Source: Bryobacterales bacterium
GTDB lineage: Bacteria; Acidobacteriota; Terriglobia; Bryobacterales; Bryobacteraceae
Length of the DNA: 64,000 bases
Assembly: GCA_963843095.1 (NCBI GenBank)
Contig: CAWJLI010000065.1
Coordinates: forward strand, 1,123-65,122
Direction: 5' to 3'
Shown here: piece after piece, positions 4,141 to 22,186 of the stretch
How the letters are laid out: each line of letters starts with the position of its first letter
How positions within the stretch are numbered: position 1 is the first letter of the stretch
The notes under the pieces: generated by a model
Database searches by the model: none
What the model saw: only the letters and a program-made list of their open reading frames with translations
What the model was told of the DNA's origin: nothing
Position numbers and translations under genes: made by a program

Positions 4141-4269
4141 ATATGAAAAACAATGGGGATTTTGCCTCCATCCATAGTTGGTGTTAGAATTTGCGTAATT
4201 AAAAACTCATTTCCAGACACTGATGACTCTTTCGATGGTATAAATCGATGAACGTGGCGAGGAGGTCAC

Positions 4270-6957: not shown

Positions 6958-7057
6958 TTGGTGGATTTAATCTCTAAATTTGCCACGTAGATTAAAAATC
7001 AACATAAGAGTTTCATCGTTACTAATAAGTTCATAAGTAACTAGACTTTTCTTCCAT

Positions 7058-7146
7058 TTTGTGGTAGTATATTGGGTATGCGAGACAACGACGGGCGGAA
7101 GCTGGACCACAAGACACTCGAGCAGGTTCGAATACGGGTCGTTTTT
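7058..7146 (+). mobile_element. IS630-family element, left end plus first ~22 codons only
   Basis: ATG at 7078 gives MRDNDGRKLDHKTLEQVRIRVV, the typical N-terminus of this IS630 subgroup as I recall it. A short GC-rich patch. The sequence before the ATG (TATTGGGTATGCGAG) loosely mirrors the right end near 4120-4137. Confidence 0.55.
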
Positions 7147-7434
7147 GATTGAGAGCCTGATACTGTTATAGACGGGTATTATTTCGAATACAAATGCCTC
7201 ATATCTCGATTTGTGAAGATCCTGATGCAATGCTCCAATGATCGATTCCTCATTGGCTTCAATTACCTGCTTGAGTTTGACTAGTTGTTTGATTCTGAAA
7301 TCAATATTTTTTGTCTTTCCGGTCTCAAAATACTTTTTATGTTCGTCCAAAATTTTCAATGTTTCTTTATCACTTATCTGTGAATTCCCTGGTACATTAA
7401 GGTCGTTAGACATCTTATATGTGTTTGTTGCCAT
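7147..7434 (-). pseudogene. aldehyde dehydrogenase (class-3-like), N-terminal ~98 codons only
   Basis: FRIKQLVKLKQVIEANEESIIGALHQDLHKSRYEAFVFEIIPVYNSIRLSIKN resembles the ALDH N-terminus. The reading frame then runs into the IS630 5' fragment, so the rest of the 155-aa ORF is read-through. Confidence 0.6.
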
Positions 7435-7487
7435 GTTAATGCCTCCCTATTCTTTTATTTCTTAACAATTTTATTTCGCTGTCGTGA

Positions 7488-7912
7488 TTATTTCGGCTGC
7501 CATGGCATTAACCCGAGTTGTTGAAGTATTGTCACCAAGTTATAATAGTCTGTTTCTCGACTTATCTTGCCATCTTGTAAGTGATAGATCGTAGCACCGC
7601 GTACAGAAAACGTCTTGCCGGTAGCTGGCATTCCAGATATTGGGCTGTGAGCATTAGTACCGGACATGACCCACTCTTGGCCTGCCCAGCCACCAGCCAC
7701 GAAAAAACTCTTTTCCTCAAACTTTACGTCGGGAACATCAACGAGGGTAGATTTGATGACGTTATCCAATTCCTTTTTGCCATTACTGACTTTCCCGAGT
7801 GCCAAATCATCTATAACACCGTCGTCCGTAAAAAAGGAAAGCATCTTATTTGCGTCATGTGAATTCCAGCTGCTATATAATCATCTATTATCTTTTTAGT
7901 ATTCCTTGCCAT
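7488..7912 (-). pseudogene. SnoaL-like / ester cyclase, one frameshift near 7868
   Basis: ATG at 7912 with an AAAGGAGG RBS gives MARNTKKIIDDYIAA. One missing nucleotide (GCAGC-TGGAAT) then separates it from NSHDANKMLSFFTDD..., which continues in the 118-aa ORF. Confidence 0.75.
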
Positions 7913-8090
7913 CTGGATGCCTCCTTTATTTTTCTAACCATTTTTATTATTTCGCAGATGTAGTCGTACTACGTTAATAGCAGTGTTTCATAACATAACT
8001 CCCGATAAGCGGTCTCTTTGTTAAATCGGGCATCATCAATGCAGTACATCTGCTTAAACAGGTCATATTCAGGCAACGAACGCGCCTACA

Positions 8091-8560
8091 CTAATACAAT
8101 CTCTTCTTTGCAAAAATCATTGGGTAAGGAACGGACCTCACCACCCGAGCGCTGAGTTTGGGGTTGAGTTGCTTCACTATGGGCTACAGATTAATCCCTT
8201 CAACCCGGCAAAACATCTCAATGGTCTTGTCGTCCATACCAAGTTCATGACCTGCTGCATAATAAGTGCATTCAGTGCACTGGGTTAAGACCCTCTTAGG
8301 GCTGTTTTCCACCACTTTAATAGAGAGACAAATTGCTCCATGCCGCGGTGGACAAGTGCTCCCGCCTATTTGGGGATCAACTTTTTATCACCGACTTGTT
8401 TTTTAATCACCTTACCTTGCATTGTGCCCATTTTCTCCATCACTTTGGACTGCAAGGCAACTGCCCGTTCCATTCCCAACTGTTCGGCTACACCGAGAAG
8501 CAACGCATCGTACATCATGAGGCCAGCTTTTACACCATCGAAAGTATCCTTATTCGCCAT
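8091..8560 (-). pseudogene. Cys-rich small protein, degraded paralog of 10664..11134
   Basis: The N-terminus MANKDTFDGVKAGL... matches MANKDTFNNAKTLF.... The continuation SIKVVENSPKRVLTQCTECTYYAAGHELGMDDKTIEMFCRVEGINL*PIVKQLNPKL lies in another frame and contains an internal stop. Confidence 0.65.
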
Positions 8561-8695
8561 TTTAATTACTCCTATTAAAAAATATATTGTTTATTATCTT
8601 ATTCTAAAAAAATGAAACCAATAATGTTACCCGTGTTATTTCAGTCAAGCATCCCATCAAATCGAATTTGAGAGATACCTTGCCTCTGTGGCATC

Positions 8696-9139
8696 CTATT
8701 TTCTTGGTGGCGGGCTAATAACTGCTCCAATCTGGGTCATCAAACTCAACATATCATTAAACTCCCACCATTCCAGGATTTTATTCCCCTCGATTTTGTA
8801 AATATCACTCCCTTTTATTGAAACATGCTTTCCGGTGGCAGGGATTCCTGCAATGGTTGCCTTATGAGTGGCTTGAATGGTATGTCTGGTAACCACTTTG
8901 TCGCCTTCAGCTACCATATCATCAATGGATTTATTAAAATCTGGAATTGCAGACAAGACTGTAGCCAAATATTGCATATTTTGTTCCCAGTCTAAATCTT
9001 TTGGAGGGAGAAGATGGTGGACTAAACCCGGTGCACAATACTTCTCACACCAAGAACGTAGTTTGGCGGTATCTTCAACAATCTCATTCCTTTCCTTAAT
9101 AACCTGACGGATCAACTCTTTGTTTTCTTTGGTGGACAT
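8696..9139 (-). CDS. SnoaL-like / ester cyclase family protein (MSTKENK subtype)
   Basis: 147-aa ORF with an AGGAGG RBS. The GIPATGKHVSIKGSDIYKIEGNKI core is shared with the other copies (PATGKTFS.RG). Confidence 0.75.
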   Translation of the reverse strand: MSTKENKELIRQVIKERNEIVEDTAKLRSWCEKYCAPGLVHHLLPPKDLDWEQNMQYLATVLSAIPDFNKSIDDMVAEGDKVVTRHTIQATHKATIAGIPATGKHVSIKGSDIYKIEGNKILEWWEFNDMLSLMTQIGAVISPPPRK

Positions 9140-9197
9140 TATTTTTCCTCCTTTATTTTTTCTAACAATCCTTATTTTGTGGATAAAGGTGAAATAC

Positions 9198-9629
9198 TTA
9201 TTTCGGCTGCCCTGGCATTAATCCGACTTGCTGAAGGAATGTAGCCATGTTGTAATACACTGATTCTCGGCTATACTTGCCATTACGCAACTGATAGATT
9301 CCAGCAACGCGTATTGAAAATGTTTTGCCGGTAGCTGGTATAGCATTTTTGGTCATTGTACTATGCGCATGGGTGCCCGACATGATCCATTCATTGCCCT
9401 GCCAATCATTGGTCCCGAAAGCCGACTTTACTTCCCATTTAATGTCGGGGAAATCAGCAAACATTGTATTTATGTAATCGGTGAATTCTTTTTTACCATG
9501 TTTGACAACACCGAGACCCAAATCTTCGTAAACACAATCTTCCGTATAAAATTCAAAGATCTTATTTACATCGTGGGAATTCCATGCTTTACTACAGTCG
9601 TTCGCCATCTTTATTGCATCGATTGCCAT
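9198..9629 (-). CDS. SnoaL-like / ester cyclase family protein
   Basis: Start chosen at ATG 9629 (MAIDAIKMANDC), which follows AAAGGAGA. Conserved core WNSHDVNKIFEFYTEDC...IPATGKTFSIR...YYNMATFLQQVGLMPGQPK. Confidence 0.8.
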   Translation of the reverse strand: MAIDAIKMANDCSKAWNSHDVNKIFEFYTEDCVYEDLGLGVVKHGKKEFTDYINTMFADFPDIKWEVKSAFGTNDWQGNEWIMSGTHAHSTMTKNAIPATGKTFSIRVAGIYQLRNGKYSRESVYYNMATFLQQVGLMPGQPK

Positions 9630-9898
9630 GTTAAAATCTCCTTTATTTTTTTCTAACAATTATTATTTTGCATATGTAGACTTTGGTGTCCGATTATATA
9701 GCTTAATTTAGCTGACCGGAGCGGAGTTTGGAGCTCCGCCCCGGCATATGATCACCTATCAAATTCGCTTTCTATCACGATTCTTGCAATATCACAGCCA
9801 TGTGCTTCTTATCGGTCTTAGCAGTCGTAAATTTACACGGCATGAGCGATGCGTTATTCATTAGTGAATTTAGTCTACGCTTACCGAATTTGATACGT

Positions 9899-10195
9899 CT
9901 ACTTCATCATGGATTTCCCAACGCTGTCGTATTCGTTTATCGATAATGCCTGGTGAGTTTTGAATTGAATATCTGGGTAGTCCGAGAGCGTCATCTTGGC
10001 AACATCGGTCCAACTTTTTTCACTTATCATGTAACCCCTGGATTCGCCCAGAAAAATTCCCCAATCGCTTATCAGACCTTCCTTCTGAAGTTGCTTTACC
10101 ATCTCAATATGCTTCGTCTGATACGCCATCCTCTCCTTGGGGTCGGTAGGATACTTGCTCAGTTCTGCTTCCCACGTCATGAAATATTTTGGCAT
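9899..10195 (-). CDS. hypothetical small protein, possibly DUF3303-like
   Basis: 98-aa ORF with a good RBS. The pattern KYFMTWEAE...GLISDWGIFLGESRGYMISE recalls DUF3303-type small alpha/beta proteins. Family assignment is from memory only. Confidence 0.5.
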   Translation of the reverse strand: MPKYFMTWEAELSKYPTDPKERMAYQTKHIEMVKQLQKEGLISDWGIFLGESRGYMISEKSWTDVAKMTLSDYPDIQFKTHQALSINEYDSVGKSMMK

Positions 10196-10276
10196 CTTAT
10201 TCTCCTTTATAATTTATTTCTTCGATAGGGGAACATAAATAGAAAGTAAAACCGGTATTATCTCATTTACTGTACA

Positions 10277-10459
10277 TCACCTCCTCGAAAAATTAAAACC
10301 GACCATTTTCAGTATGTAGCCACCATTGGGCAACAACTGCTCGTTCTTTATCTGCATCAAACTGGGCCAAATCTGCAGCAAGTTACTCAGCTTTATCACA
10401 AAATCGTAGATTTTTTCTACAGGCGCGTTAATAAAAATCTCTTTATCAACTCTTGTCAT
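10277..10459 (-). pseudogene. SRPBCC (START/polyketide-cyclase-like) N-terminal stub
   Basis: MTRVDKEIFINAPVEKIYDFVIKLSNLLQIWPS is a typical SRPBCC N-terminus. The ORF stops after 60 aa, against about 140 expected. Confidence 0.5.
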
Positions 10460-10663
10460 TGTATGCCCCTTTTCCCCTTTGTCGGGGGATAAATTATGCT
10501 GAAGTTATGCGAAAGAATTGATCAGGTAGCCTAGATCACGAGTGGTCTAACCTGAACATAAATTTGGAACATAACCAATCTTCTTTTTGGCATTGTCTCT
10601 TTTACTCTAAATTGTTGTTTAGATTTACTGAAACAAAGGCACTTAAACCTAAATCAATCATCG

Positions 10664-11134
10664 CTACAATCTCCTCTTCGCAGAAATCTTCCGGTGTGGA
10701 CGGAAATTCACCAGCCGAAAGCTGAGTTCAGGATTGAGTTGTTTAACCATTGTATCTATGAAATTGATTCTGCCCGCTCTGCACCACCTCTCAATGACCG
10801 GGTGGTCTATCCCCAATTCGCGAGCCGCTTCGTAATTATGGCATCTGGAACACTGCACCAAAACGCAGTGGGGACTTTCTTCTACTATTTTTATGCTTGA
10901 GCCGAGACTATTATATACAGCTCTGACCAGTGGCTCTGCGGCCCGGGCGTTATATTTTTTAGTAGTTTTCCGCTTTATAATCAGTGGGTCCGGCATCGCT
11001 CCCATTTTCTCCATTGCTTTAGCAGATAAATCGATGGCTCGATCCATTCCAATCTCTTCAGCTACAGTTTGAGCAAAAACATGATGCATTTTGAACAGTG
11101 TTTTAGCGTTATTAAAAGTATCCTTATTTGCCAT
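10664..11134 (-). CDS. Cys-rich small protein, family uncertain (ATC-hydrolase-like?)
   Basis: 156-aa intact ORF with VQCSRCHNYEAARELGIDHPVIERWCRAG. Intact counterpart of the pseudogene at 8091..8560. Confidence 0.6.
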   Translation of the reverse strand: MANKDTFNNAKTLFKMHHVFAQTVAEEIGMDRAIDLSAKAMEKMGAMPDPLIIKRKTTKKYNARAAEPLVRAVYNSLGSSIKIVEESPHCVLVQCSRCHNYEAARELGIDHPVIERWCRAGRINFIDTMVKQLNPELSFRLVNFRPHRKISAKRRL

Positions 11135-11252
11135 ATAATCACCCCTATTTTGTAAATATTCGGGAATGATAAATTATTATCATTCACTTTTTCATAACAC
11201 AACCCCCAATAATCCAGGCCCGTTGCTGGTCTATTTGATTAAAAACTTCGTT

Positions 11253-11513
11253 CTAACACAATCGTTTGCAATCTAAACACCACCACATTGTCATTAATTT
11301 ATTACTTCTATTTTTGCCACGTCGCGAGCGTACTTTTACCGGTTCGAGATTTTCTTCCATACTCCCCAAAAATAACATCGCTTTACTTTGATCGGAGATC
11401 TTAATCAGATTGGTTGAACCGCAGGCAGCGCATTTGATTTCTTGATGCACATGATTTTCGCAATCATTGGGGTTACCGTCGAAAACCGCGTTCTTTGACC
11501 CATCACTAACCAC
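11253..11513 (-). CDS. small zinc-ribbon protein, inverted paralog of 201..473; N-terminus overprinted by IS-end repeats
   Basis: DCENHVHQEIKCAACGSTNLIKISDQSKAMLFL...WWCLDCKRLC aligns with the left copy from DCE onward. The first ~17 codons are encoded by the TGGGTCAAAGAA repeats, so the 5' end is probably not native. Confidence 0.55.
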   Translation of the reverse strand: MVSDGSKNAVFDGNPNDCENHVHQEIKCAACGSTNLIKISDQSKAMLFLGSMEENLEPVKVRSRRGKNRSNKLMTMWWCLDCKRLC

Positions 11514-11526
11514 ATTCTTTGACCCA
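11491..11526. repeat. two direct copies of TTCTTTGACCCA (minus-strand TGGGTCAAAGAA), putative IS21-type terminal repeats
   Basis: Copies at 11491-11502 and 11515-11526, just 3' of the istB remnant on the minus strand. A third partial copy, CTTTGACCC, is at 11819-11827. Confidence 0.5.
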
Positions 11527-11554
11527 CCCGGGGATTATTAAAGTTGTACTACTT

Positions 11555-11835
11555 CTACTTTACTGCTGTCAATCCCTCCTTTCGCCGGTGCGGCGATAGT
11601 TTTTCCCTGTAACTCGATCCCTCGATAACAATCTGATAGCTGGCATTTGCCAGCCTGTCCAGAGCGCTGTTACCGAGGATAGGGTCATCAAACAATCCCA
11701 GCCACTCTTCCACCGACCGGTTACTGGTAAAAGCAAAGCTGGACTGCCGGTGCCTGGCGATGATGAGTTCATAAAGGTCAGTTGACTGCTGACCCAAGAC
11801 CTCCGTGAGTACTTCAAACTTTGACCCGCCTCCAA
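11555..11835 (-). mobile_element. IS21-family IstB helper ATPase, C-terminal remnant
   Basis: EVLTEVLGQQSTDLYELIIARHRQSSFAFTSNRSVEEWLGLFDDPILGNSALDRLANASYQIVIEGSSYREKL matches the IstB C-terminus. No Walker A region and no istA upstream. Confidence 0.7.
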
Positions 11836-11849
11836 ATAGACCGGATCGG

Positions 11850-12305
11850 ATGTACAGGCACGACCGGCCTGTTGATCCCGAGTTCTTGCCTTCAGAACTC
11901 CTCTATTACCGGATCGCTGTTACTGGGCCTGTTGGGTCATGCCCCGATGGAGTCGATATTCGGCTTCCGGAGGATTCGGTTAACCGAGGTAAGTATAGCG
12001 AACCGACGGACGTTCTTTTTCCGGACTATTTTCACCTTGGCGTAGCAGAGTTTCCAGTCTCCAAGATTCCCGCTCCTCGCTCCTTCACGGATCAGCAAGG
12101 GAACTCCAGGGGTTACGAACTGAAGGTCGAGCACGACCCGAAGGAGGATAACTATGCCCATTCCGAGTTGCGGGCCTTCCGCGAACGTTCGAGGGTGACT
12201 CATACGGGCAAGATTCCGGTAACCGTGAAAAGCGAGTTCCGTCAGTTGGTTGCTGAAGCAATGGTCATCCGTGTTGCCGTGCCTGCAGGCCACCCCACGC
12301 AGTGA
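11850..12305 (+). CDS. hypothetical protein (orphan)
   Basis: ATG at 11850 (MYRHDRPVDPEFLPSELLYYRI...DNYAHSELRAF...). Intermediate GC. No family recognised. The track ORF starts at an upstream GTG at 11805. Confidence 0.5.
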   Translation: MYRHDRPVDPEFLPSELLYYRIAVTGPVGSCPDGVDIRLPEDSVNRGKYSEPTDVLFPDYFHLGVAEFPVSKIPAPRSFTDQQGNSRGYELKVEHDPKEDNYAHSELRAFRERSRVTHTGKIPVTVKSEFRQLVAEAMVIRVAVPAGHPTQ

Positions 12306-12508
12306 AGCAGTGAAGCGTACATTCAAACGAATTGACGGAATATCCACGGGTGGAATCTGGTGACGCTATGGTGACGAGTTAGAGACCAAACAATCCAAAG
12401 ACTCGCCGAAGCACTGCGAGCGAAAATCGGTCCGATTCGGCTGCACGGTATGGGCTTATGCGATTTGTAGCGAAGCACTGCAAAGTGCGCTAAATGCCTT
12501 CGACCCCT

Positions 12509-12552
12509 CTTTCACGGCGGTAACGGGGGTTCGAATCCCCCTGGGGACGCCA
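12509..12552 (+). pseudogene. 3' fragment of tRNA-Glu(UUC), anticodon loop to CCA; att-like scar
   Basis: CTTTCACGGCGGTAACGGGGGTTCGAATCCCCCTGGGGACGCCA parallels the E. coli tRNA-Glu 3' half (CUUUCACGGCGGUAACAGGGGUUCGAAUCCCCUAGGGGACGCCA). There is no GTCCCC acceptor or D-arm upstream. Confidence 0.7.
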
Positions 12553-12682: not shown

Positions 12683-13357
12683 CTAGTAGCGGTCGGCAAC
12701 GGGAATCGTGCCAGTAGCTTCGATCACCGCTTCCTCGATCGAGCGCGCCACGTGCGCAAGCGGTTGGGCGCCATCCACGGTATGGACACGCGCCGGCCCA
12801 TACCAGTCCAGAATCGGACCGGTGAGCTGGCTGTAGGCATATAGACGGTCGCGGATCACCGATTCCAGATCGTCCTCCCGGGTGAGCAGCCCCGAACCAT
12901 CGTCGTCACAATAACCCGCGATGCGCGGCGGTTGCGACTGCAGGTTGTAAATCTTCAAGCACTTGGGGCATTGGCGGCGGGCGGTCAAACGCGCCACCAG
13001 GATGCTGTCCGGCACGTCGAGGTGAATCACTACCGGCTCAGGCAAGTCGCGCTCGGCCAACAGCGTCGCGAAGTTCTGCGCCTGCGGCACCGTGCGCGGG
13101 TATCCATCCAGCAGGAAGCCGTTCTTGCAGTCCGGCCGCGAAGTGCGGCTGGCTACGATGCCGTTGACGATGTCATCGCTCACCAAGCCGCCGGCCTGCA
13201 TGATGACGCTGGCCTGCTTGCCCAATTCCGTTCCCGCTTTGCACTCGGCGCGGAACATTTCGCCAGTGGAGATGGCCGGTATGTGGAATTTTTCAGCAAG
13301 TGAAGTCGCTTGCGTACCTTTGCCACAGCCGGGCGGACCAAAAAGCAGCAAAATCAC
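12683..13357 (-). CDS. adk: adenylate kinase
   Basis: P-loop GPPGCGKGT, LLDGYPRT, and a lid with CPKC...CDDD. GTG start preceded by GGAGG. Confidence 0.95.
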   Translation of the reverse strand: MILLLFGPPGCGKGTQATSLAEKFHIPAISTGEMFRAECKAGTELGKQASVIMQAGGLVSDDIVNGIVASRTSRPDCKNGFLLDGYPRTVPQAQNFATLLAERDLPEPVVIHLDVPDSILVARLTARRQCPKCLKIYNLQSQPPRIAGYCDDDGSGLLTREDDLESVIRDRLYAYSQLTGPILDWYGPARVHTVDGAQPLAHVARSIEEAVIEATGTIPVADRY

Positions 13358-13403: not shown

Positions 13404-14507
13404 CTAATCGGGTTGAATCCTTCCGTCGCGGCGGAGGCGGAGATTGAGGCCGCGCCATTCCACCGTCATGCCGAACAGGCCGGCGACCCAGATTGCGCTT
13501 CCGAGCAGATCGCGAATCGGGATGAGCGCCAAGCGGCGGCCAGTGGCGGCATCTTCCAGGACTTCCGCGGCGATCCAGGCGCCGGCGGCGATGCGCAGCG
13601 CGAGAGCCGGAATGGCGGCCCACCATGCTCCGGCCAACAGCGCCACCAGGCTCCACAACGTGGCGTGGGTGACAATCGAGCCGCAGTAGCCGGAAAACCG
13701 CGAGACGCGGATGGTGCGCGCCCAGCGCAACTGGTGCCGCCAGACCTGGCCCCACGAGCCGGCGCCCAGGTTGGTTTCCACCACCACGTCCGCGAACTCG
13801 ATGTGCAGCCCGAGTTGATGGATGTGGCGGCCCAGTTGGTAATCGTCGGCCAGGTAATCGAAGATGGTTTCGAAGCCGCCGATGGCGCGCAACGTTTCGG
13901 CGCGGAAGGCCATCGTCGACCCAAGAGCGAATTCGGCCACGCCCAGCAGGCGCGCCACCATCACGCTGGGCGCGAAATCGGTAGCGATGCCGAGGGCCTC
14001 CATGCGGGTTGCCGGAGAGCCGCCGTGCGCGCGATAGAGGCACGTCACCAGCCCGGTTCCGGCTCCGGCGAGCGGCGCCACCACGGCGTCCAGATATCCG
14101 GGCGGAACGAAAATGTCGCCGTCGTTCACCAGCAGAACCTCGTGTCGGGCGTGGCGCGCCAGTTCGGCCAGCACGCCGGCTTTGGCATTGGGCGCGGTGG
14201 TGGATACGACGTGGAGGGAAATCGCCAGGTTGGGAAACTCGCTCTGCAAGCTCGCGATGTCCGCTATCGCCGGATCGCTGGGATCGCTGACGCCGAACAG
14301 GATTTCGAACTCCGGATAGTTCTGCGCGGCGTGAGAGCGGACGCAGGCGTAAAAGCTGGGGTCGCGGCCCTGAACGGGCTTGAGGACAGAGATGGGGGGC
14401 GCATACGGCGGCCACTGCGCCGCCAGCCTGCCCCACCGTGTAGCGGCGATGAGCGCCAGCAGATAGTACGCAGCCGCCGCCAGCGCCGGAAGTGCCAGCA
14501 GGATCAC
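13404..14507 (-). CDS. hpnI: hopanoid-associated family-2 glycosyltransferase HpnI-like
   Basis: ISVLKPVQGRDP...YPEFEILFGVSDPSDPAIADI...VLLVNDGDIFVPPGYLDAVVAPLA...GLVTCLYRA fits the HpnI/ceramide-glucosyltransferase-like pattern. Sits next to hpnJ. The GTG start overlaps the upstream stop (GTGA). Confidence 0.75.
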   Translation of the reverse strand: MILLALPALAAAAYYLLALIAATRWGRLAAQWPPYAPPISVLKPVQGRDPSFYACVRSHAAQNYPEFEILFGVSDPSDPAIADIASLQSEFPNLAISLHVVSTTAPNAKAGVLAELARHARHEVLLVNDGDIFVPPGYLDAVVAPLAGAGTGLVTCLYRAHGGSPATRMEALGIATDFAPSVMVARLLGVAEFALGSTMAFRAETLRAIGGFETIFDYLADDYQLGRHIHQLGLHIEFADVVVETNLGAGSWGQVWRHQLRWARTIRVSRFSGYCGSIVTHATLWSLVALLAGAWWAAIPALALRIAAGAWIAAEVLEDAATGRRLALIPIRDLLGSAIWVAGLFGMTVEWRGLNLRLRRDGRIQPD

Positions 14508-14866
14508 AGCGACACCAGCGCCACGCCGCAGAGGACGACCGCCGCGCCAGCCCAGCGCAGCCAGTTGACGCGCTCCTTCAGAACGTACTTGGCCAAAATC
14601 GTTTCGATGACGTAGGTGACCGCGGTGACCGGAACGGCGAAGCTGAGGTCGGTGAACGACAGCAGTCCGAGGTAGGCGAAGAACGAAACCGCCATCGCCA
14701 CCACCGACAAGATGACGACGCCGTTGCGCGCCAGCGTGCCCGCCGCGCGGCCAAGCGCGCCGGGGCGGAAGTCGCGGATCTCGCCATGGCGGCGCATGCC
14801 GATCGCTTGCAGCACTTCACCCACGCTGGTGGCAGCCACGATGATGGCAATCAGCAGCCACTTCAT
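14504..14866 (-). CDS. half-size DMT/EamA-like membrane protein (4 TM)
   Basis: 120 aa. LSFTDLSFAVPVTAVTYVIETILAKYVLKERVNWLRWAGAAVVLCGVALV is an EamA half-repeat. ATGA overlap with the upstream gene. Confidence 0.7.
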   Translation of the reverse strand: MKWLLIAIIVAATSVGEVLQAIGMRRHGEIRDFRPGALGRAAGTLARNGVVILSVVAMAVSFFAYLGLLSFTDLSFAVPVTAVTYVIETILAKYVLKERVNWLRWAGAAVVLCGVALVSL

Positions 14867-15276
14867 GATGCCCCCTCCGGTTTCCCGCGAAAGGTCTGCG
14901 GCGCGCTGCCGCTGCCCACCAGCGCCACTCCGGCCATGATCAGCAGAATGCCGGCCCAGCGCTGGCGAGTGATCCGTTCATCGAGCAGCCAGCGGCCGAG
15001 GAACGCCACCAGCACGTAGCCAATCGACGTCACCGGCAGCACGTAGCTCAAATCCGCCCAGCTCAGCAGCGTCATCCGCGAAAGCAGCCACACAATCAGC
15101 AACGACACGCCCAGCGCCACCCACGGCCGGAACAGCACGGTGATGTAGGAGAGCGGCGAGGGAAGCTCATCCGGCATGCCGCGTTTGAGAAAGAAATTGC
15201 CGAAGACCTGGGCCAGCACCACGATAGCGGCGCAGGCCCAGGTCTTGCTGCGCAACCGCGCGGTTTCCGGCGTCAT
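14863..15276 (-). CDS. half-size DMT/EamA-like membrane protein (4 TM)
   Basis: Start set at ATG 15276 (MTPETARL), 8 nt after the hpnJ stop. LSWADLSYVLPVTSIGYVLVAFLGRWLLDERITRQRWAGILLIMAGVALV. The longer track ORF would overlap hpnJ. Confidence 0.65.
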   Translation of the reverse strand: MTPETARLRSKTWACAAIVVLAQVFGNFFLKRGMPDELPSPLSYITVLFRPWVALGVSLLIVWLLSRMTLLSWADLSYVLPVTSIGYVLVAFLGRWLLDERITRQRWAGILLIMAGVALVGSGSAPQTFRGKPEGAS

Positions 15277-15284
15277 CAGAGGGG

Positions 15285-16748
15285 TTAATCGCCGGAAGAA
15301 ACCGGCGCCGGGGTCGCGGCGGCCTTGTGGCCCGCCACAAATTTCTTGCGCTTGGAACGAAGCGCCATGTATTCGCGTGCTTCCTTGGTCAGGCGCCGCC
15401 GCTCGCTCGAATTGAAGATGGCTTTCCGGACGATGCGCCAGATCACGCGCGGGCGGAAGAAGTACTCGCCATAGAAGCGCTCTACCCAATCCACCAGCTC
15501 GCCGCGGTCCAGCCCCGGGTAGATCACGACCGGCAATTGGTGGCCGGTTTCATCGGTCAGCGCATCGATGGTGAGCAGATCGTTCTTCTTGGCGTAATTG
15601 TAGAACTCGGTGCCTGGATAGGGATGGGCGATCGAGACCTGGATGGTTTCCGTATCCATCCGCTTGGCGAAATCGATGGTCTTGCGGATCGTGTCCCGCG
15701 TTTCGCCGGGCAGGCCGATGATGTAATCGCCATGCACCGTGAGGTCCAGTTTCTTGCAGTTGGCCGTAAAGCGCTCGGCCATCTCGACGGTGGCGCCCTT
15801 CTTGATGTTCTTCAGGATCTGCTGGTCGCCCGATTCGTAGCCCACGATCAGCAGCCGGCAGCCGGCTTCCTTCATCGCCTTCAGCGTCTCGTAATCGGTG
15901 GTGACACGCGATGTGCAGGACCAGGTGAACTTCAGCGGCTTGAGCTTCTTGCACAGCTCGATGGTGCGGTCCTTGCGGTAGTTGAAGGTGTCGTCGTCGA
16001 AAAAGATTTCCTTGATATTGGGGAACTGCTCGATCGCGTAGCGGGCTTCCGCGGCTACATCGTCGGCCGAGCGCAGGCGCCAGCGGTGGCCGGAATGTGT
16101 CTGCGGCCACAGGCAGAAGGTACACAGCGCCGGGCAGCCGCGGCTGGTATAGAACGCGATATAAGGGTTGAGCAGAAACGGGACGTTGTAACGCGTGACA
16201 TCGAGATCGCGCTTGTAGGTCTTGGTCACCCAGGGCAGCGCGTCCAGATCCTCGATGGCGGGGCCTTCGGGGTTGTGGATCACGTCGCCGTTGCGGCGGA
16301 AACTCACTCCCGGCAATTCGGCGAGCGGTTTACCCTTGGCGTAATCGGCGATCTGGTAATCGAACTCGCGGCGCACCACGAAATCGATCGCGGTCGTCGA
16401 GCGCAGGGTTTTTTCCGGCTCGATGGTGACCGGCGGCCCCACGAACGCCACCCGCAGCTTCGAATTCGCGTCCTTCATCATCTCCGCCATCTTGACGTCC
16501 ACCTGGAAGCCCGGCGAGGAAGTGTAGAGCACCAGCAGCTCGAAATCCTTCGCCATCTCGACGGTTTGCGGGATGGAGATCTTGTGCGGCGGCGCATCCA
16601 CCACCTTGCTGTCGGCCAGCATGCCGGCCGGATAGCAGAGCCACACGGGATACCAGTAGGATTCGATTTCGCGCGAGGCCGGCCAGCGCGAGCCGGCGCC
16701 TCCATCGAATCCTTCAAAGGACGGCGGATTCAGAAATAGTGTTCGCAT
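15285..16748 (-). CDS. hpnJ: hopanoid biosynthesis-associated B12-binding radical SAM protein HpnJ
   Basis: MRTLFLNPPSFEGFDGGAGSRWPASREIESYWYPVWL... and the radical SAM site YTSRGCPALCTFCLWPQT match the HpnJ family pattern as I recall it. Confidence 0.85.
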   Translation of the reverse strand: MRTLFLNPPSFEGFDGGAGSRWPASREIESYWYPVWLCYPAGMLADSKVVDAPPHKISIPQTVEMAKDFELLVLYTSSPGFQVDVKMAEMMKDANSKLRVAFVGPPVTIEPEKTLRSTTAIDFVVRREFDYQIADYAKGKPLAELPGVSFRRNGDVIHNPEGPAIEDLDALPWVTKTYKRDLDVTRYNVPFLLNPYIAFYTSRGCPALCTFCLWPQTHSGHRWRLRSADDVAAEARYAIEQFPNIKEIFFDDDTFNYRKDRTIELCKKLKPLKFTWSCTSRVTTDYETLKAMKEAGCRLLIVGYESGDQQILKNIKKGATVEMAERFTANCKKLDLTVHGDYIIGLPGETRDTIRKTIDFAKRMDTETIQVSIAHPYPGTEFYNYAKKNDLLTIDALTDETGHQLPVVIYPGLDRGELVDWVERFYGEYFFRPRVIWRIVRKAIFNSSERRRLTKEAREYMALRSKRKKFVAGHKAAATPAPVSSGD

Positions 16749-16778
16749 GCATTCCCCCCACCCGGCGCTTGCCGCCGG

Positions 16779-17477
16779 CTACCGGGCTTCGTCCACCGCA
16801 TCGGTTTCATCCAATGCGTAATTGCTATAGGCGACGGTCAGTTCCGCGCGCCCCACCAGGCGCGTATCCACCACGCTCTCCATCCGCAGCGGCACGGCCT
16901 GGCCGTCGCGGATCTCGTATTTTCGCGTGAAGGCCACCCGCCTCACGAATAGAGACGGACTCTTGACTAGGTACCCCGATTCCCGCACCTTCAAGTAGGT
17001 AGCGGTGTCGATCCACAGGTCGCCTTTGAACAGTCCCTCCGCCTTGTGCTTCGGCGTCACCTGAAACCAGTAAACGTCGCGACCGTCCAGTTCCGAGCGG
17101 CCCTTGAAGTGGAAGCGATAGTGATCCGGCGTCACCGCCATGGCGGCCTTACGATCCTGCTGCGCACCGATTTCGGCGGCCAGATAGCGGGCAATCAGTT
17201 CGCGCTTGACCGTTCCGTCCCCTTCAAATCCCAGCACCTGGTACGTGATGCGGCCCAGCCGGGAGATGCGGCGCAGCGCGCGCAGCTTGCCGGTCTTGCT
17301 GAGCTTCGGCAGCGCGCCATTGATTTCCACTTCCATCGTCGAGGCCCTCGAAGAATCCGCCTGGTTTTGCGCCGCCACACAATAATTGCGCACGATTGCT
17401 TCGGCGCCGTCGGAAGACTCCTCCGCCATCGCCAAAGCACCGAGAAAAAGAACAGGTATAAAAACGCAGACCTTCAA
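16779..17477 (-). CDS. secreted LolA-like / outer-membrane lipoprotein-sorting-like protein
   Basis: TTG start at 17477 gives the signal peptide (M)KVCVFIPVLFLGALAMA. The body has DHYRFHFKGRSELDGRDVYWFQVTPKHKAEGLFKGDLWIDTATY...AYSNY, typical of the LolA-like beta-fold. Fold assignment is from pattern only. Confidence 0.5.
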   Translation of the reverse strand: MKVCVFIPVLFLGALAMAEESSDGAEAIVRNYCVAAQNQADSSRASTMEVEINGALPKLSKTGKLRALRRISRLGRITYQVLGFEGDGTVKRELIARYLAAEIGAQQDRKAAMAVTPDHYRFHFKGRSELDGRDVYWFQVTPKHKAEGLFKGDLWIDTATYLKVRESGYLVKSPSLFVRRVAFTRKYEIRDGQAVPLRMESVVDTRLVGRAELTVAYSNYALDETDAVDEAR

Positions 17478-17812: not shown

Positions 17813-18832
17813 GTGCGTACAAAAAGCATGCTCAATCGGCTGGTTGCGGGAATTGCCGGTGCCGTCCTAATTGCTGGGGCCTTTGGCGCAGGGATTCTGA
17901 TGCGGCCGCCTCGCCCAGAAAACCAGAAGCCAGGGAAGTTCCCCGAGCAGATCGTGTACGTCCGTTCATCTGATGACGTTGTCAGCGCTGGTGTCATGTT
18001 TTCGCCGCCTCAGACCCAGTCAAAACGACTGGCGGTGATCTGGGTCCACGGCTGGGGAGTGAACTTTTATTTGCCGAGTTACGTGGGGATTGGACGGGCG
18101 CTCGCCACGCTCGGGTATCCCACGATTTCGGTGAACACACGAATGCATGATCTAGGTAATGTTGAAAAGTACACCTCGACCGGGAAACGCGTGCGAGGCG
18201 GCGGCTATTGGGGTATTACGAGCGAGGACGCTCGCGATATCGCCGCCTGGATTGGATATGCCGAACAACTGGGATACAGCCGCGTAGTGCTTGTGGGGCA
18301 CAGCGCTGGATGGGCAAGTGTCGGTCAATATCAAGTCGATTCTGGCGACAAGCGAGTAGCTGGCTTGGTCTTCGCCTCAGGAGAAGTAGTTGGGAATTTG
18401 CAGGGGTCTCACGACCCGAATTCTGGCGACCCGATTTGGATTCGGCAAGCCCAGAAACTCGTCGACGAAGGTGTTGGGGAGGACTTGTTGAGGATTCCTA
18501 ACCGCCCGTTCCCTTCGTTCATTAGTGCGGCGACCGAGTTGGACATGATTCACAGGCCTCGGGAGTACGCTGACTTTTTTGGAACACAAACGTCGAATCC
18601 GCCGGTTCTTCGAGTCAGTTGTCCGCTGCTCGCCTTTTTCGGCACGAAAGGCGATGTTGGCGGCGAAAAGGAACTCCTTCTTCTTAAATCATCAGTACAG
18701 CGCCTTTCCAAGGGGCCCCGGAGCGTCAAGACGACGATGATTACCGCTGGGAACCACGAGTACGTCGGCGAAGAGGCACAAGTCGCTCAGACGATCGCCC
18801 AGTGGGTCGAGGCAGAGGCGCTCACTCGATAG
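17813..18832 (+). CDS. alpha/beta hydrolase with signal peptide
   Basis: VIWVHGWG...VVLVGHSAGW (GxSxG nucleophile elbow). N-terminal hydrophobic signal. Alternative ATG at 17828. Confidence 0.8.
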   Translation: MRTKSMLNRLVAGIAGAVLIAGAFGAGILMRPPRPENQKPGKFPEQIVYVRSSDDVVSAGVMFSPPQTQSKRLAVIWVHGWGVNFYLPSYVGIGRALATLGYPTISVNTRMHDLGNVEKYTSTGKRVRGGGYWGITSEDARDIAAWIGYAEQLGYSRVVLVGHSAGWASVGQYQVDSGDKRVAGLVFASGEVVGNLQGSHDPNSGDPIWIRQAQKLVDEGVGEDLLRIPNRPFPSFISAATELDMIHRPREYADFFGTQTSNPPVLRVSCPLLAFFGTKGDVGGEKELLLLKSSVQRLSKGPRSVKTTMITAGNHEYVGEEAQVAQTIAQWVEAEALTR

Positions 18833-19203: not shown

Positions 19204-20758
19204 ATGGACCACATCCTTTCCATTGTCCTGTTCACGCCGCTCGCCGGACTGCTGGTGCTGCTCGCCATTCCGTCGTCGAATGCGCGCGCGGTGAAACTGG
19301 TGGGCGAACATCGCCGCTTTCCTGGGCTTCGCGGTTTCCCTTCCGCTGGTCTTCCTGTTCGACCGCACCAAGGACTTTCAGTTCGTCGAAAAGGCGCCCT
19401 GGATTCCCTCCATCGGCGCCACCTATCATTTGGGCATCGACGGCCTCGGCCTGCTGCTGGTGATGCTCACCACGCTGCTGGGCCTGATCTCCATTCTCTC
19501 GAGTTGGAGCGCCATTCAAGAGCGGCTCAAGGAATATTACGCCTTCTTCCTGCTGCTGCAGACCGCCATGCTGGGCGTCTTCATGTCGCTCGATTTCCTG
19601 CTGTTTTTCGTCTTCTGGGAAACGGTGCTGGTGCCTATGTACTTCATCATCGCCATCTGGGGCGGCCAGCGCAGGCAGTACGCGGCGATGAAGTTCATCA
19701 TTTACACGCTGATCGGTAGCGTGCTCATGTTTCTCGGCATTTTGGTCCTCTACTTCCAGCACTTCATGCAGTTCCGCTCTTACAGCTTCGATATCGTGGA
19801 GCTGCTGCGCACGCAGGTACCGGTGACCACCCAGTGGTGGGTGTTCTGGCTCTTCTTCGTGGGCTTCGCCGTCAAAGTGCCCATGTTCCCGTTCCACACC
19901 TGGCTGCCGGACGCGCACACGGAAGCGCCCACCGCCGGCTCCGTGATCCTGGCCAGCGTGCTCTTGAAGATGGGCACGTACGGTTTCCTGCGCTTTTCCC
20001 TGCCGCTGCTGCCGGACGCGGCCAAGAACCACACCGTGATCACGGTGATGGCGGTGCTTTCCATCATCGGCATCGTGTACGGCGCGCTGGCTTCGCTGAT
20101 GCAAAAGGACTGGAAAAAGCTGGTGGCCTATTCTTCGGTGAGCCACCTGGGATTCTGTACGCTGGGGATTTTCGCGCTGAACCCGGCGGGCATTGCCGGC
20201 TCGATCATCCAGCAGATCAACCACGGCATCTCCACCGGCATGCTCTTCCTGATCGTGGGCGTGGTCTATGAGCGGCGCCACACGCGCGAGATCGCCGAAT
20301 ACGGCGGCCTGCTGAAGGTGATGCCGATCTTCACCCTGGTCTTCGGCCTGGCCGCGCTGAGCTCCATGGGGATGCCGCCGCTCAACGGCTTCATCGGCGA
20401 AATCACCATCCTCAGCGGCGCGTATCAGATGTCCCACATGTGGGCCTTCTGGGGCGCGGTGGGAATCGCTCTCGGCGCGGCCTACCTGCTGTGGCTTTTC
20501 CAGCGCACCATGCTGGGCGAGGTTGGCGAGAAGAACCGGGCGATCCCGGATCTGAACTGGCGCGAGATCGCCGTCTTTGCGCCGCTGATCGCCTGGGCCT
20601 TCTGGATCGGCTTGAACCCGCAGCCGTACTTCCGCGTGCTCGACCGCAGCGTGGCGCAAATCGTCCAGCGCGTCCAGCCCGGCTACTACGAGGAGCGGCA
20701 CCTGCCCAACCCGCTGGGGAATGCCCCCCGCCTGACCGCCGCCACCGCGCAGCAATGA
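19204..20758 (+). CDS. nuoM: NADH-quinone oxidoreductase subunit M-like (NuoM/complex I antiporter-like), isolated copy, one frameshift near 19300-19306
   Basis: MDHILSIVLFTPLAGLLVLLAIP... continues in another frame as NIAAFLGFAVSLPLVF...HLGIDGLGLLLVMLT...FVFWETVLVPMYFIIAIWGGQRRQYAAMKFIIYTLIGS. No other nuo genes are adjacent. Confidence 0.85.
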
Positions 20759-21070
20759 ACCCTCGCAGCCGTGAGGCGGGTTGGTAGCCCGCGCGCCGAT
20801 CACAGGCTTGTCAAGTATTTTCAAGCCGCTGCCAACGCGCGGCTTACTGCCGTCTTCCGAAGCTCCCGCCGCCATCTCCAACAGCCTTCCGTGCCACAGT
20901 GAAAGCAGGAGATCGTAGGGGCCCGGCACGCCCGGCCAGCGGTTCGCGCGCGCACCTTATCTTATAGAGCCGACGGCAAAGTGGGGCAAGTTGCCTCACG
21001 AGAACTCGCCACGGTGTCTTGGTTTCAATGACTTAACGCTCCGCCGTGGGGCGAATCCGCCCCACGCGCC

Positions 21071-22099
21071 TTACCGAAGTTGCACCAAGTCCTGGGGTGA
21101 GGGTGCCCCAAGCGGCGACGGCGCCAGGTTCTGCCGGCCGCGCCAGAAATCGATATAGGAAATCTGGTGCACGCAGGCCACGGTGCAGCGCGGAGCGCAG
21201 GCTTTAGCGGTGCGGTATTCGCGGCGGATGTCTTCGAGCGTGTAGTCCATCAGCGGCTTGGCCGGGTAGCCACGCTGTTGCGAGCAGTAGTGAACCAGGC
21301 CGTCCTCGCAGATGTAGAGATAGCGCGCGCCGGCACGGCAGCGCCAGTCGTTCTCTTTGCCGTGCGCGATGTTGTCCTGGAAATAGTTGATCTGCGCGTA
21401 GCTGGATTTCTCCATCGCGCGCATGGCCATATAAACCTCGCGCTCCTCGCCGCCGAGGGGGCGAAGCTGCCCGGCGCCGTCATGAATGATGCCGATGGTG
21501 GAAGTGAAGCCCAGCGCGATCGCACGCCGGCCGATCACCGGGGCGTCCTGCGGATTCCGTATGCCGCCGCCGACCACCGAGTTGATATTGACATGAAACT
21601 CGGCATGCTCGGCCAGCAGGCACAGCTTGCGGTCCAGCACCTTCAGGCTCTTCTTCGAAACATCGTCCGGCATCACGTTGTCGATGGAAATCTGCAGGTG
21701 CTCCAGGCCGGCGCGGTTGAGGCGCTGGATGCGTTCGGCCGTGAGCAGGTATCCGTTGGTGATGAGACCGGCGATCATGCCGTGGTGGCGGATGCGCGCG
21801 ATCAGCAGGTCCAGGTCCGGATGGAGCAGCGGTTCGCCGCCGCTGATGGTGACCACGCTGGTTCCCAGTCGGGCAAGCCGGTCGAGGCGCTGATACATGG
21901 TCGCGATCGAAACCGGTTTCGAGTGGTCGTCGTACTCGTTGCAGTACGCGCAGGAAAGATTGCAGCGCCGCATGGGTATCACGTGCGCCATCACGGGATG
22001 GCGGGTCGAGGCCAGCCCCTTGGCGATCATCCGGATTTCCCTGGCCCGCAGGTGTGCGCGTTTCCAGGACTTTCGGAAACGTCTTCTCAAGTCCCTCAT
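21071..22099 (-). CDS. radical SAM protein with Cys-rich (SPASM/twitch-like) C-terminal region
   Basis: [12 protein letters not shown] (CxxxCxxC), SGGEPLL, and C-terminal [19 protein letters not shown]...CAPRCTVAC. Start set at ATG 22099 (MRDLRRRF). Confidence 0.8.
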
Positions 22100-22186
22100 A
22101 GAGTGCAAAGTTGCTTCTATTACAACACATGCCGGCCCGGTGGGGCATGCCTTAGCTTGCCAACGCCCGCTTTGCGGGCGCATTCT

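What the first reader, a model, noticed from the sequence alone, without database searches (positions are those of the whole stretch)
13404..17477. Hopanoid head-group cluster with an inserted pair of half-size DMT proteins and a LolA-like secreted protein
Four genes on the minus strand run hpnJ (radical SAM), two ~120-137-aa four-helix EamA/DMT half-transporters, and hpnI (glycosyltransferase). The last three are translationally coupled by ATGA/GTGA overlaps, and hpnJ ends only 8 nt before the first. A signal-peptide LolA-like protein ends 30 nt upstream of hpnJ. From established work, HpnI adds N-acetylglucosamine to bacteriohopanetetrol, HpnK deacetylates it, and HpnJ makes the cyclitol ether. 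Pairs of half-size DMT proteins are known as heterodimeric lipid-sugar flippases (ArnE/ArnF). Their position between hpnJ and hpnI, together with a lipid-carrier-like periplasmic fold, suggests a dedicated flip-and-deliver step for glycosylated hopanoids. As far as I know, no such flippase has been assigned. No hpnK-like deacetylase is present in the window.
Basis: partly seen in the sequence, partly recalled or inferred. Interest (0 to 1): 0.6.

Follow-up and report, generated by a model that had tools for sequence, protein, structure and literature searches.

The report
Candidate flippase pair for glycosylated hopanoids
Two small paired membrane-transporter genes sit between the hopanoid head-group genes hpnJ and hpnI; the same family travels with these genes in two phyla, which makes it the best untested candidate for moving sugar-bearing hopanoid lipids across the inner membrane.

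Summary
On the minus strand lie a LolA-fold secreted protein, hpnJ, two 4-helix EamA/DMT half-proteins (137 and 120 aa), hpnI and adk. The 8-nt gap and the ATGA and GTGA overlaps are as described. HpnJ and HpnI pass NCBI's curated cut-offs. The host is a Bryobacteraceae (Acidobacteriota) MAG.

The DMT pair is conserved, not inserted by chance. In 301 Acidobacteriota genomes, strong matches occur almost only where HpnI is present. The pair stays beside hpnJ, hpnK or hpnI through at least six gene orders. Cyanobacteria carry a fused form (DMT1-like half, then DMT2-like half), and it sits inside hpnJ-hpnK-X-hpnI clusters. Clusters without the DMT, in Proteobacteria and two acidobacteria, carry HpnL instead, an MprF-flippase-domain protein. 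The Lys/Arg bias of the two halves is opposite, as in paired SMR transporters.

My reading is an ArnE/ArnF-like glycolipid flippase for HpnI products. It is inferred from genomics only. The pair does not belong to the ArnE/ArnF families.

The LolA-like gene has a confident LolA-superfamily fold, but it is linked to hpnJ only within Bryobacterales. No HpnN was found in the Terriglobia genomes searched.

This scan reached the same conclusion earlier on other genomes. I found no paper that assigns this function.

The parts
16779..17477 (-). Secreted LolA-superfamily protein of 232 aa. The N-terminus MKVCVFIPVLFLGALAMA reads as a Sec signal peptide. It has no lipobox cysteine.
   Evidence: Pfam LolA_like scores 25.6 bits, under the threshold of 30. 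The AlphaFold2 model has pLDDT 82.7 and pTM 0.76. VIA-align gives Z 11.1 to 3bk5, 10.6 to 4z48 (DUF1329) and 10.2 to LolA3 9tp6. The gene lies directly upstream of hpnJ in about 72 of 80 Bryobacterales loci. The signal peptide was read by eye, not by a predictor.
15285..16748 (-). hpnJ, a B12-binding radical SAM enzyme of hopanoid head-group synthesis (487 aa).
   Evidence: TIGR03471 scores 782.6 bits (cut-off 577.6), covering the full-length profile 1-472. Pfam finds B12-binding and Radical_SAM domains. A CPALCTFC (CX3CX2C) motif is visible in the translation.
14863..15276 (-). DMT1, a half-size four-helix EamA/DMT protein (137 aa). The conserved polar residue in TM1 is Asn27.
   Evidence: EamA scores 26.9 bits and ArnE 22.8 bits. 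The word-index search found 4652 relatives, and the 50%-identity representative search found 1807 clusters. D75, P81, E100 and W107 are invariant, and position 27 is N or D, in 103 orthologues. The Lys/Arg bias weakly favours termini inside.
14504..14866 (-). DMT2, the paralogous half-size EamA/DMT protein (120 aa). The TM1 residue is Glu17.
   Evidence: EamA scores 39.9 bits (threshold 28.2), ArnF 23.8 and ArnE 19.6. The ATGA overlap with DMT1 and the GTGA overlap with hpnI are in the sequence. Loops 1 and 3 carry a mean of 9.65 Lys+Arg against 2.24 on the other side, in 100 orthologues.
13404..14507 (-). hpnI, the GT2/GT21 glycosyltransferase that makes bacteriohopanetetrol N-acetylglucosamine (367 aa).
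   Evidence: TIGR03472 scores 359.3 bits (cut-off 310). Pfam Glyco_transf_21 scores 134.8 bits.
12683..13357 (-). adk (adenylate kinase), a conserved downstream neighbour. It marks the end of the module and is not proposed as part of the pathway.
   Evidence: TIGR01351 scores 214 bits. The gene follows hpnI in about 48 of 80 Bryobacterales loci.

Best explanation
DMT1 and DMT2 most likely form an antiparallel heterodimer of two four-helix DMT/SMR-like subunits in the cytoplasmic membrane. I propose that this dimer moves the glycosylated bacteriohopanepolyols made by HpnI (BHT-GlcNAc or BHT-GlcN, and the cyclitol ether made by HpnJ) from the cytoplasmic leaflet to the periplasmic leaflet. HpnI uses a nucleotide sugar and HpnJ needs SAM and an Fe-S cluster, so both must act on the cytoplasmic face. 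That is established knowledge of these enzyme classes, not something tested here. A polar-headed product made there needs a translocator. In Bryobacterales the co-oriented, secreted LolA-fold protein may then take up the lipid in the periplasm. Shown here: the gene identities, the conserved linkage, the fused forms, the alternation with HpnL, and the opposite charge bias. Inferred: the substrate, the direction, the dimer, and any role of the LolA-like protein.
For: 1. HpnI and HpnJ pass curated cut-offs. The genome also holds shc and hpnH, so it is a hopanoid producer.
2. Of 35 other Acidobacteriota genomes with HpnJ over cut-off, 28 have the pair within about 2 kb downstream of hpnJ. One has it 8 kb away. 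Three have it beside hpnI or hpnK at another locus. Three lack it.
3. The gene orders seen are hpnJ-DMT1-DMT2-hpnI, hpnJ-DMT1-DMT2, hpnJ-hpnK-DMT1-DMT2-hpnI, hpnK-DMT1-DMT2-hpnI, DMT1-DMT2-hpnI and hpnK-DMT-hpnI. The last occurs in genomes without hpnJ. The constant partner is therefore the glycosylation step.
4. 36 of the 37 genomes with a DMT1-profile match of 100 bits or more also have an HpnI-family match of 284 bits or more. Only 53 of the 301 genomes have any HpnI-family match.
5. Fused proteins of about 280 aa (DMT1-like N half, DMT2-like C half) are cyanobacterial by the names their sources give. In low-GC metagenome contigs they lie in hpnJ-hpnK-X-hpnI, hpnK-X-hpnI and hpnJ-X-hpnI clusters.
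6. Every hpnI/J/K cluster seen without a DMT but with a neighbouring membrane protein carries HpnL (Pfam LPG_synthase_TM) in that place. These are Mycetohabitans, Paraburkholderia, Methylobacterium, G056 and G286. No HpnL-like gene at E<=1e-10 was found in the 25 sampled genomes of the three families nearest this MAG (f1-f3).
7. The Lys+Arg bias of the two halves has opposite sign. The fused forms have an extra hydrophobic linker segment. The SMR review describes both features for antiparallel pairs and their fusions, and also an Asn in place of the central Glu in lipid-type SMRs (PMC9574504). DMT1 has Asn or Asp at that position, and DMT2 has Glu or Asp.
8. Contigs from wetland metatranscriptome libraries match parts of the locus exactly. 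In close relatives such contigs bridge the hpnJ/DMT1 and DMT1/DMT2 junctions. This evidence is weak.
Against: There is no functional evidence of any kind. The ArnE/ArnF scores are far below their cut-offs, so the analogy rests on architecture and context, not on orthology. DMT1's charge bias is weak (5.7 against 4.5), so an antiparallel dimer is not proven. The fused-form model was mediocre (pLDDT 72.6, linker under 50) and gave only weak DMT matches. About half of the fused-form loci with long flanks show no hpn gene within 7 kb. A second, paralogous pair in the related complete genome G279 has no hpn neighbours. Ten genomes with HpnI-family matches showed neither a DMT nor an adjacent HpnL. 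Related genomes are not independent observations. Hopanoids with small head groups may flip unaided, so the need for a flippase is an assumption.
Confidence: 0.5

Rival explanations
1. The pair is a transporter for a small soluble molecule tied to the pathway or to envelope stress, not for the lipid itself. Candidates are an amino sugar or cyclitol, a radical-SAM by-product, or a cation.
For: Most characterised EamA/DMT and SMR proteins move small solutes. The weak secondary hits are to carboxylate/amine, phosphonate-associated and multidrug families. A paralogous pair exists away from hpn genes in G279, and many fused forms lack hpn neighbours.
Against: The UDP-GlcNAc and SAM chemistry needs no known soluble import or export. 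The alternation with HpnL, a lipid-flippase-type domain, points to a lipid substrate. The pair stays with hpnI even where hpnJ is not found.
Confidence: 0.17
2. The pair is a membrane scaffold, not a transporter. It would recruit the soluble enzymes HpnJ and HpnK to the membrane-embedded substrate, or hand HpnI's product on to them.
For: The tightest linkage in Terriglobales is hpnJ-DMT1-DMT2 with hpnI elsewhere. The genes are translationally coupled. HpnJ and HpnK have no membrane segments of their own recorded here.
Against: Charged and polar residues conserved within the membrane (N/D27, D75 and E100, and their DMT2 equivalents) are typical of transporters. The pair also occurs with hpnI alone, and with hpnK plus hpnI in genomes without hpnJ. 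Proteobacterial HpnJ works without such a pair.
Confidence: 0.15
3. The LolA-like protein is a dedicated periplasmic hopanoid carrier that completes an HpnN-independent export route. This concerns the 'deliver' half of the reader's idea.
For: It has a confident LolA-superfamily fold, with lipid carriers (LolA, LolB, LppX, LprG) among the matches. It has an apparent signal peptide. It is co-oriented, ending 30 nt before hpnJ. It is syntenic in about 72 of 80 Bryobacterales loci at only 50-60% identity. No HpnN at E<=1e-20 was found in this MAG or in five Terriglobia genomes at least 99% complete.
Against: The gene is linked to hpnJ only within Bryobacterales. It was not seen within 1.5 kb of hpnJ in G269 (a genome of this MAG's own family) or in Terriglobales. 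It was not seen in any fused-form cluster. The fold also includes the regulators RseB and MucB. A shared fold shows no ligand.
Confidence: 0.3
4. The small genes are unrelated passengers that merely sit between hpnJ and hpnI.
For: None beyond the absence of experiments.
Against: The linkage survives at least six rearrangements, a gene fusion and two phyla, at 35-45% protein identity.
Confidence: 0.03

Closest known systems
ArnE/ArnF (PmrL/PmrM), the undecaprenyl-phosphate-L-Ara4N flippase and lipid subtype of the SMR family
   Same: Both are two adjacent, overlapping genes for four-helix proteins of about 110-135 aa. Both lie inside an operon that puts an amino sugar on a membrane lipid. These are the best named hits in NCBIfam. 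One subunit has Asn at the central TM1 position, as the review reports for lipid SMRs (PMC9574504).
   Different: The scores of 20-34 bits are far below the cut-offs of 92-99, so the pair is not an orthologue. Pfam places it in EamA/DMT. The presumed substrate is a pentacyclic triterpenoid glycoside, not a polyprenyl phosphate sugar. There is no experimental evidence.
HpnL (TIGR03476; Pfam PF03706, LPG_synthase_TM, the membrane domain that serves as flippase in MprF by established work)
   Same: HpnL occupies the same place in hpnI/J/K clusters and alternates with the DMT pair. [quoted passage not shown]
   Different: The fold and family are unrelated, and HpnL is a single protein of about 320-350 aa. 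HpnL is found predominantly in Pseudomonadota according to that paper.
Paired SMR transporters (EbrAB, MdtIJ) and the 10-helix DMT/SLC35 proteins
   Same: The two subunits have opposite Lys/Arg bias. Fusion came with an added linker helix. The fused model gives weak fold matches to the CMP-sialic acid transporter, LicB and YddG.
   Different: Those proteins move small solutes. DMT1's bias is weak here.
HpnN (RND) with the proposed HpnM/HpnS/HpnT Mla-like hopanoid trafficking route
   Same: It concerns the same problem, getting hopanoids from the inner to the outer membrane.
   Different: HpnN was not found in this MAG or in five Terriglobia genomes. That study's microsynteny was centred on shc and hpnN and had few acidobacterial proteins. 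Its main text does not mention EamA, DMT or LolA.
LolA/LolB, the LolA_like/DUF1329 proteins, and the mycobacterial lipid carriers LppX and LprG
   Same: The fold is the same open beta-barrel with a hydrophobic cavity (Z 7-11). The protein is secreted.
   Different: It is not a Lol-pathway component by context. The ligand is unknown. The sequence is under the Pfam threshold.

Membership tests
HpnJ (TIGR03471) | Score over the curated equivalog cut-off, full-length match, B12-binding and radical SAM domains, CX3CX2C motif | tested here: met
   782.6 bits against 577.6, profile positions 1-472. Both Pfam domains are present. CPALCTFC is in the translation.
HpnI (TIGR03472) | Score over the curated equivalog cut-off; GT2/GT21 domain | tested here: met
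   359.3 bits against 310. Glyco_transf_21 scores 134.8 bits.
EamA / DMT superfamily (PF00892) | Pfam gathering threshold of 28.2 bits | tested here: met
   DMT2 scores 39.9 bits. DMT1 scores 26.9 bits, just under the threshold, but it is a clear paralogue of DMT2. Many DMT1 orthologues carry PF00892 in the precomputed annotation.
ArnE (NF011625) / ArnF (NF002816) | Score over the curated cut-offs (92 and 99 bits) | tested here: not met
   DMT1 scores 22.8 against ArnE. DMT2 scores 23.8 against ArnF and 19.6 against ArnE.
ArnE/ArnF-like architecture (works-like test, not membership) | Adjacent pair of four-helix subunits in a lipid-glycosylation operon, with opposite positive-inside bias | tested here: inconclusive
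   The pairing and the context are met. DMT2's bias is strong and DMT1's is weak and opposite. No dimer model could be made.
Glycolipid flippase activity | Translocation of the lipid-linked sugar across the membrane | not testable with these tools
   This needs genetics or reconstitution.
LolA superfamily (Pfam LolA_like PF17131) | Pfam gathering threshold of 30 bits | tested here: not met
   25.6 bits. Many close homologues do carry PF17131 in the precomputed annotation.
LolA superfamily (fold) | Unclosed beta-barrel with helical plug, matching solved members well above background | tested here: met
   pLDDT 82.7. Z is 11.1, 10.6 and 10.2 over 178-184 residues to 3bk5, 4z48 and 9tp6, and Foldseek probability is 1.00.
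HpnK (TIGR03473) | A gene over the cut-off of 232.6 bits, in the window or the genome | tested here: not met
   The window has no match. The genome has only a two-frame YdjC-like gene on contig C205 (100 + 88 bits). Relatives hold intact orthologues at 180-211 bits.
HpnL (TIGR03476) | Any match in the genome | tested here: not met
   No match at E<=1e-10 in G000, which is 71% complete, or in the 25 sampled genomes of families f1-f3.
HpnN (TIGR03480) | Any match in the genome | tested here: not met
   No match at E<=1e-20 in G000 or in five Terriglobia genomes at least 99% complete. The tool warns that long queries can miss weak matches.

The most novel reading that the evidence does not exclude
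Glycosylated hopanoids need a dedicated inner-membrane flippase. Bacteria would have solved this twice with unrelated proteins: the small DMT pair (or its fusion) in Acidobacteriota and Cyanobacteria, and HpnL in Proteobacteria. In Bryobacterales, a secreted LolA-fold protein encoded at the head of the operon would then carry the flipped lipid toward the outer membrane. Together these would form a complete hopanoid export route that does not use HpnN.
Probability: 0.2. Interest if true: 0.75.

Novelty: new variant of a known kind. Interest (0 to 1): 0.6.

Why it matters
Hopanoids are the bacterial counterparts of sterols and a major geological biomarker. The enzymes that build the amino-sugar and cyclitol-ether head groups are known. 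How these polar-headed lipids cross the inner membrane is not known, and the one known transporter, HpnN, was not found in the Terriglobia genomes searched here. A conserved, compact candidate with a fused version and an alternating non-homologous partner (HpnL) turns that open step into a testable one. It would also extend small SMR/DMT-type glycolipid flippases from polyprenyl-phosphate sugars to triterpenoid glycosides. Finally, it suggests a function for HpnL, which the latest hopanoid-transport study leaves open.

Tried and rejected
- The 37-sequence DMT1 alignment was too diverse for the search for related loci.
- The genome-contig scan returned only Bryobacterales among its best 80 loci. 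The wider spread had to come from the genome search and one metagenome scan.
- The fused-form model gave no PDB match at E<=0.001. I draw no topology from it.
- The promoter and terminator scan was no better than shuffles.
- I considered the divergent alpha/beta-hydrolase at 17813-18832 as a substitute deacetylase. It has no counterpart in any of the 80 related loci.
- The radical SAM gene at 21071-22183 is not HpnH (47.7 bits against 225). The other neighbours (NuoM-like protein, DnaB, a kinase and others) are not hopanoid genes.
- The YdjC-like gene on C205 has no shc or hpnH beside it and is only about 31% identical to cluster-embedded HpnK. I do not call it hpnK.
- RNA-library contigs cover the locus only in pieces. 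They cannot show a transcript, its strand or its level.
- Searching earlier scan notes by sequence found nothing.
Full report
**Observation.** The window holds five co-oriented minus-strand genes exactly as described. They are a LolA-like gene (16779-17477, TTG start), hpnJ (15285-16748), DMT1 (14863-15276, 137 aa), DMT2 (14504-14866, 120 aa) and hpnI (13404-14507). adk follows at 12683-13357. The DMT1 ATG lies 8 nt after the hpnJ TAA. DMT1/DMT2 share ATGA and DMT2/hpnI share GTGA. HpnJ (782.6 bits, cut-off 577.6) and HpnI (359.3 bits, cut-off 310) pass NCBI's curated equivalog cut-offs. DMT2 passes Pfam EamA and DMT1 is just under the threshold. ArnE and ArnF are the best named hits for DMT2; for DMT1 ArnE ranks second, just below a phosphonate-associated membrane family. 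All these hits are far below their cut-offs.

**Organism and pathway context.** Close relatives are named Bryobacteraceae/Bryobacterales MAGs from peat and soil. The assembly is 71% complete in 223 contigs. It encodes squalene-hopene cyclase (612.9 bits) and HpnH (414.4 bits) on other contigs, so it can make extended hopanoids. The other genes near the module in the window are not hopanoid genes. The first 12 kb of the window have 41-46% GC against 60-65% for the rest.

**Linkage within the order.** In 80 Bryobacterales species loci the order LolA-like, hpnJ, DMT1, DMT2, hpnI (then often adk) is nearly universal. 72 loci show the LolA-like gene, and 79 show DMT2 and hpnI. Most exceptions are cut by contig ends. 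Identities fall to about 50% for the LolA-like protein, 60% for HpnI and 65% for DMT1.

**Linkage across the phylum.**
- 36 of 301 sampled Acidobacteriota genomes have HpnJ over cut-off.
- Of the 35 besides this one, 28 carry the DMT pair within about 2 kb downstream of hpnJ. In Terriglobales hpnI is usually elsewhere.
- In G249 the pair lies 8 kb from hpnJ.
- In G189, G016 and G251 the pair has left hpnJ and sits beside hpnI, in the orders DMT1-DMT2-hpnI or hpnK-DMT1-DMT2-hpnI.
- G101 has hpnJ-hpnK-DMT1-DMT2-hpnI.
- In G117, G152, G220, G278 and G290, which have no HpnJ over cut-off, a single DMT gene lies within about 1 kb of hpnI. In G117 and G152 it lies between hpnK and hpnI.
- With a DMT1-family profile, 37 genomes score 100 bits or more. 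36 of those also have an HpnI-family match of 284 bits or more. Only 53 of the 301 genomes have any such HpnI match.
- Related genomes are not independent, so I give no p-value. Survival of the linkage through at least six arrangements is the stronger argument.

Claims about G024 and G152 rest on unpublished genomes and may not be published without the depositors' permission. No claim here rests on the third unpublished genome, G049.

**Alternation with HpnL.** The three HpnJ-positive acidobacteria without any DMT match (G056, G286, G024) have a proteobacterial-type HpnJ, 45-49% identical to ours. In G056 and G286 the order is hpnI, hpnJ, (hpnK), then an HpnL-like gene. The same order holds in Mycetohabitans, Paraburkholderia and Methylobacterium replicons, which have no DMT. 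These HpnL proteins are Pfam LPG_synthase_TM. By established work on MprF, that domain is the flippase part of the protein. No HpnL-like gene at E<=1e-10 was found in the 25 sampled genomes of the three families nearest this MAG (f1-f3). None was found next to any fused-form cluster. The alternation is not perfect: ten HpnI-family-positive genomes showed neither protein.

**Fused forms.** The representative search returned proteins of about 280 aa that match twice. Their N half is most like DMT1 and their C half most like DMT2, the same order as the gene pair. A hydrophobic segment lies in the linker. Sources name their relatives as Stenomitos, Leptolyngbya, Prochloraceae, Crocosphaera and Synechocystis. 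In low-GC metagenome contigs the fused gene lies in three kinds of cluster:
- hpnJ-hpnK-X-hpnI (L161, L179, L180, L191);
- hpnK-X-hpnI (L143, L144, L155, L173);
- hpnJ-X-hpnI (L137, L138).

About half of the long-flank fused loci show no hpn gene within 7 kb. That may reflect dispersed cyanobacterial hpn genes or a second function.

**Architecture.** Both halves share three motifs:
- G-[N/D/E] in TM1;
- [D/E]-L-S-x3-P-x-T-x3-Y in TM3;
- L-x-E ... R-W-x-G before TM4.

Over about 100 orthologues each, DMT2 carries 9.65 Lys+Arg in loops 1 and 3 against 2.24 on the other side. DMT1 carries 4.47 against 5.72. The signs are opposite but DMT1's bias is weak. The SMR review states that paired SMRs have opposite biases. 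It also states that fusing an even-helix protein into an inverted repeat needs an inserted helix, and that lipid-type SMRs often have Asn for the central Glu (PMC9574504). All three features have counterparts here. The AlphaFold2 model of a fused form was mediocre, and its fold matches were weak hits to DMT/SLC35 proteins.

**LolA-like protein.** The model is confident (pLDDT 82.7). It matches LolA-superfamily structures with Z 11.1, 10.6 and 10.2 over about 180 residues. LolA, LolB, LppX and LprG follow at Z 7-9. The N-terminus looks like a cleavable signal peptide. The gene's link to hpnJ is confined to Bryobacterales. No HpnN was found in this MAG or in five near-complete Terriglobia genomes, so these bacteria need some other route to the outer membrane. 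That makes a carrier role plausible but unproven.

**HpnK.** There is no HpnK in the window. Sinninghe Damste et al. 2017 reported that subdivision 1 and 3 acidobacteria have hpnI and hpnJ but lack hpnK (PMC5462960). I find that five Terriglobia genomes hold an unlinked full-length YdjC-family gene at 180-211 bits, just under the cut-off. This MAG's copy is split over two frames. Other acidobacterial families have a clear cluster-embedded hpnK. Whether Bryobacterales make the cyclitol ether, and on which substrate HpnJ acts, stays open.

**Literature and earlier notes.** No paper in the library links hopanoids with an EamA or DMT flippase. One paper lists an EamA protein among the domains of a Leptospirillum hopanoid cluster without comment. 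The recent study of hopanoid transport proposes HpnM, HpnS and HpnT and leaves HpnL open. Its main text does not mention EamA, DMT, LolA or flippases. This scan noted the same family on at least 14 other genomes. Four follow-ups reached the same reading, and one of them also noted the swap with HpnL. I read those notes only after my own survey, and they agree with it.

**Expression.** Contigs from wetland metatranscriptome libraries match parts of hpnI and of the LolA-like gene without a mismatch. Contigs from close relatives bridge the hpnJ/DMT1 and DMT1/DMT2 junctions. Such contigs cannot prove transcription or a single transcript.

**Verdict.** I commit to a flippase role at about 0.5, ahead of a solute transporter or a scaffold. 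The LolA-like carrier idea is weaker, at about 0.3. The pair is a new, unnamed, hopanoid-linked subfamily of small DMT/SMR-like proteins, not a member of ArnE/ArnF.

Noticed in passing
G000 contig C132, locus L128 6778-11640: The genome holds a second, paralogous DMT pair (L128 9677-10084 and 10081-10440, about 42-45% identical to the first). It converges on an HpnI-like glycosyltransferase that is split over two frames (216.6 bits for profile positions 88-367). Beyond a tsaD gene lies a B12-binding radical SAM protein that is not HpnJ (64.6 bits). In the related complete genome G279, the orthologous second pair has none of these neighbours.
   Followed up: partly
G000 contig C205 14523-15333 (L001, L002, L219): A YdjC-family (HpnK-like) gene is split over two reading frames. 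Intact orthologues in five Terriglobia genomes score 180-211 bits, just under the HpnK cut-off of 232.6. They are unlinked to hopanoid genes. They could be the 'missing' deacetylase of subdivision 1 and 3 acidobacteria, or an unrelated YdjC enzyme.
   Followed up: partly
G000 contigs C61, C132, C205: Several genes in this MAG read in two or three frames: a second shc at C61 419-1974, the HpnI-like gene on C132 and the YdjC-like gene on C205. This suggests assembly or sequencing frameshifts rather than true pseudogenes.
   Followed up: no
Genomes G000, G279, G269, G014, G179, G199: None of the six Terriglobia genomes searched matched HpnN, the RND hopanoid transporter, at E<=1e-20. All six have shc-dependent hopanoid head-group genes.
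   Followed up: partly
G117:C45, G152:C60, G220:C46, G278:C83, G290:C9: In other acidobacterial families that lack HpnJ, a single small DMT gene lies within about 1 kb of hpnI. In G117 and G152 it lies between hpnK and hpnI. This may be a homodimeric, dual-topology version of the pair. G152 is an unpublished genome.
   Followed up: partly
L141, L145, L156, L158, L159, L162, L164, L167, L169, L175, L177, L182: About half of the fused cyanobacterial-type DMT loci with long flanks have no hpnI, hpnJ or hpnK within 7 kb.
   Followed up: no
window 1-12552: The GC content is 41-46%, against 60-65% for the rest of the window. The hopanoid module starts only about 130 nt beyond the junction, but its synteny with adk in relatives shows that it is authentic.
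   Followed up: partly
window 19232-20929: A NuoM-like membrane gene lies upstream of the module. It recurs upstream of the LolA-like gene in only 5 of the 80 related loci, all of them among the closest relatives.
   Followed up: no
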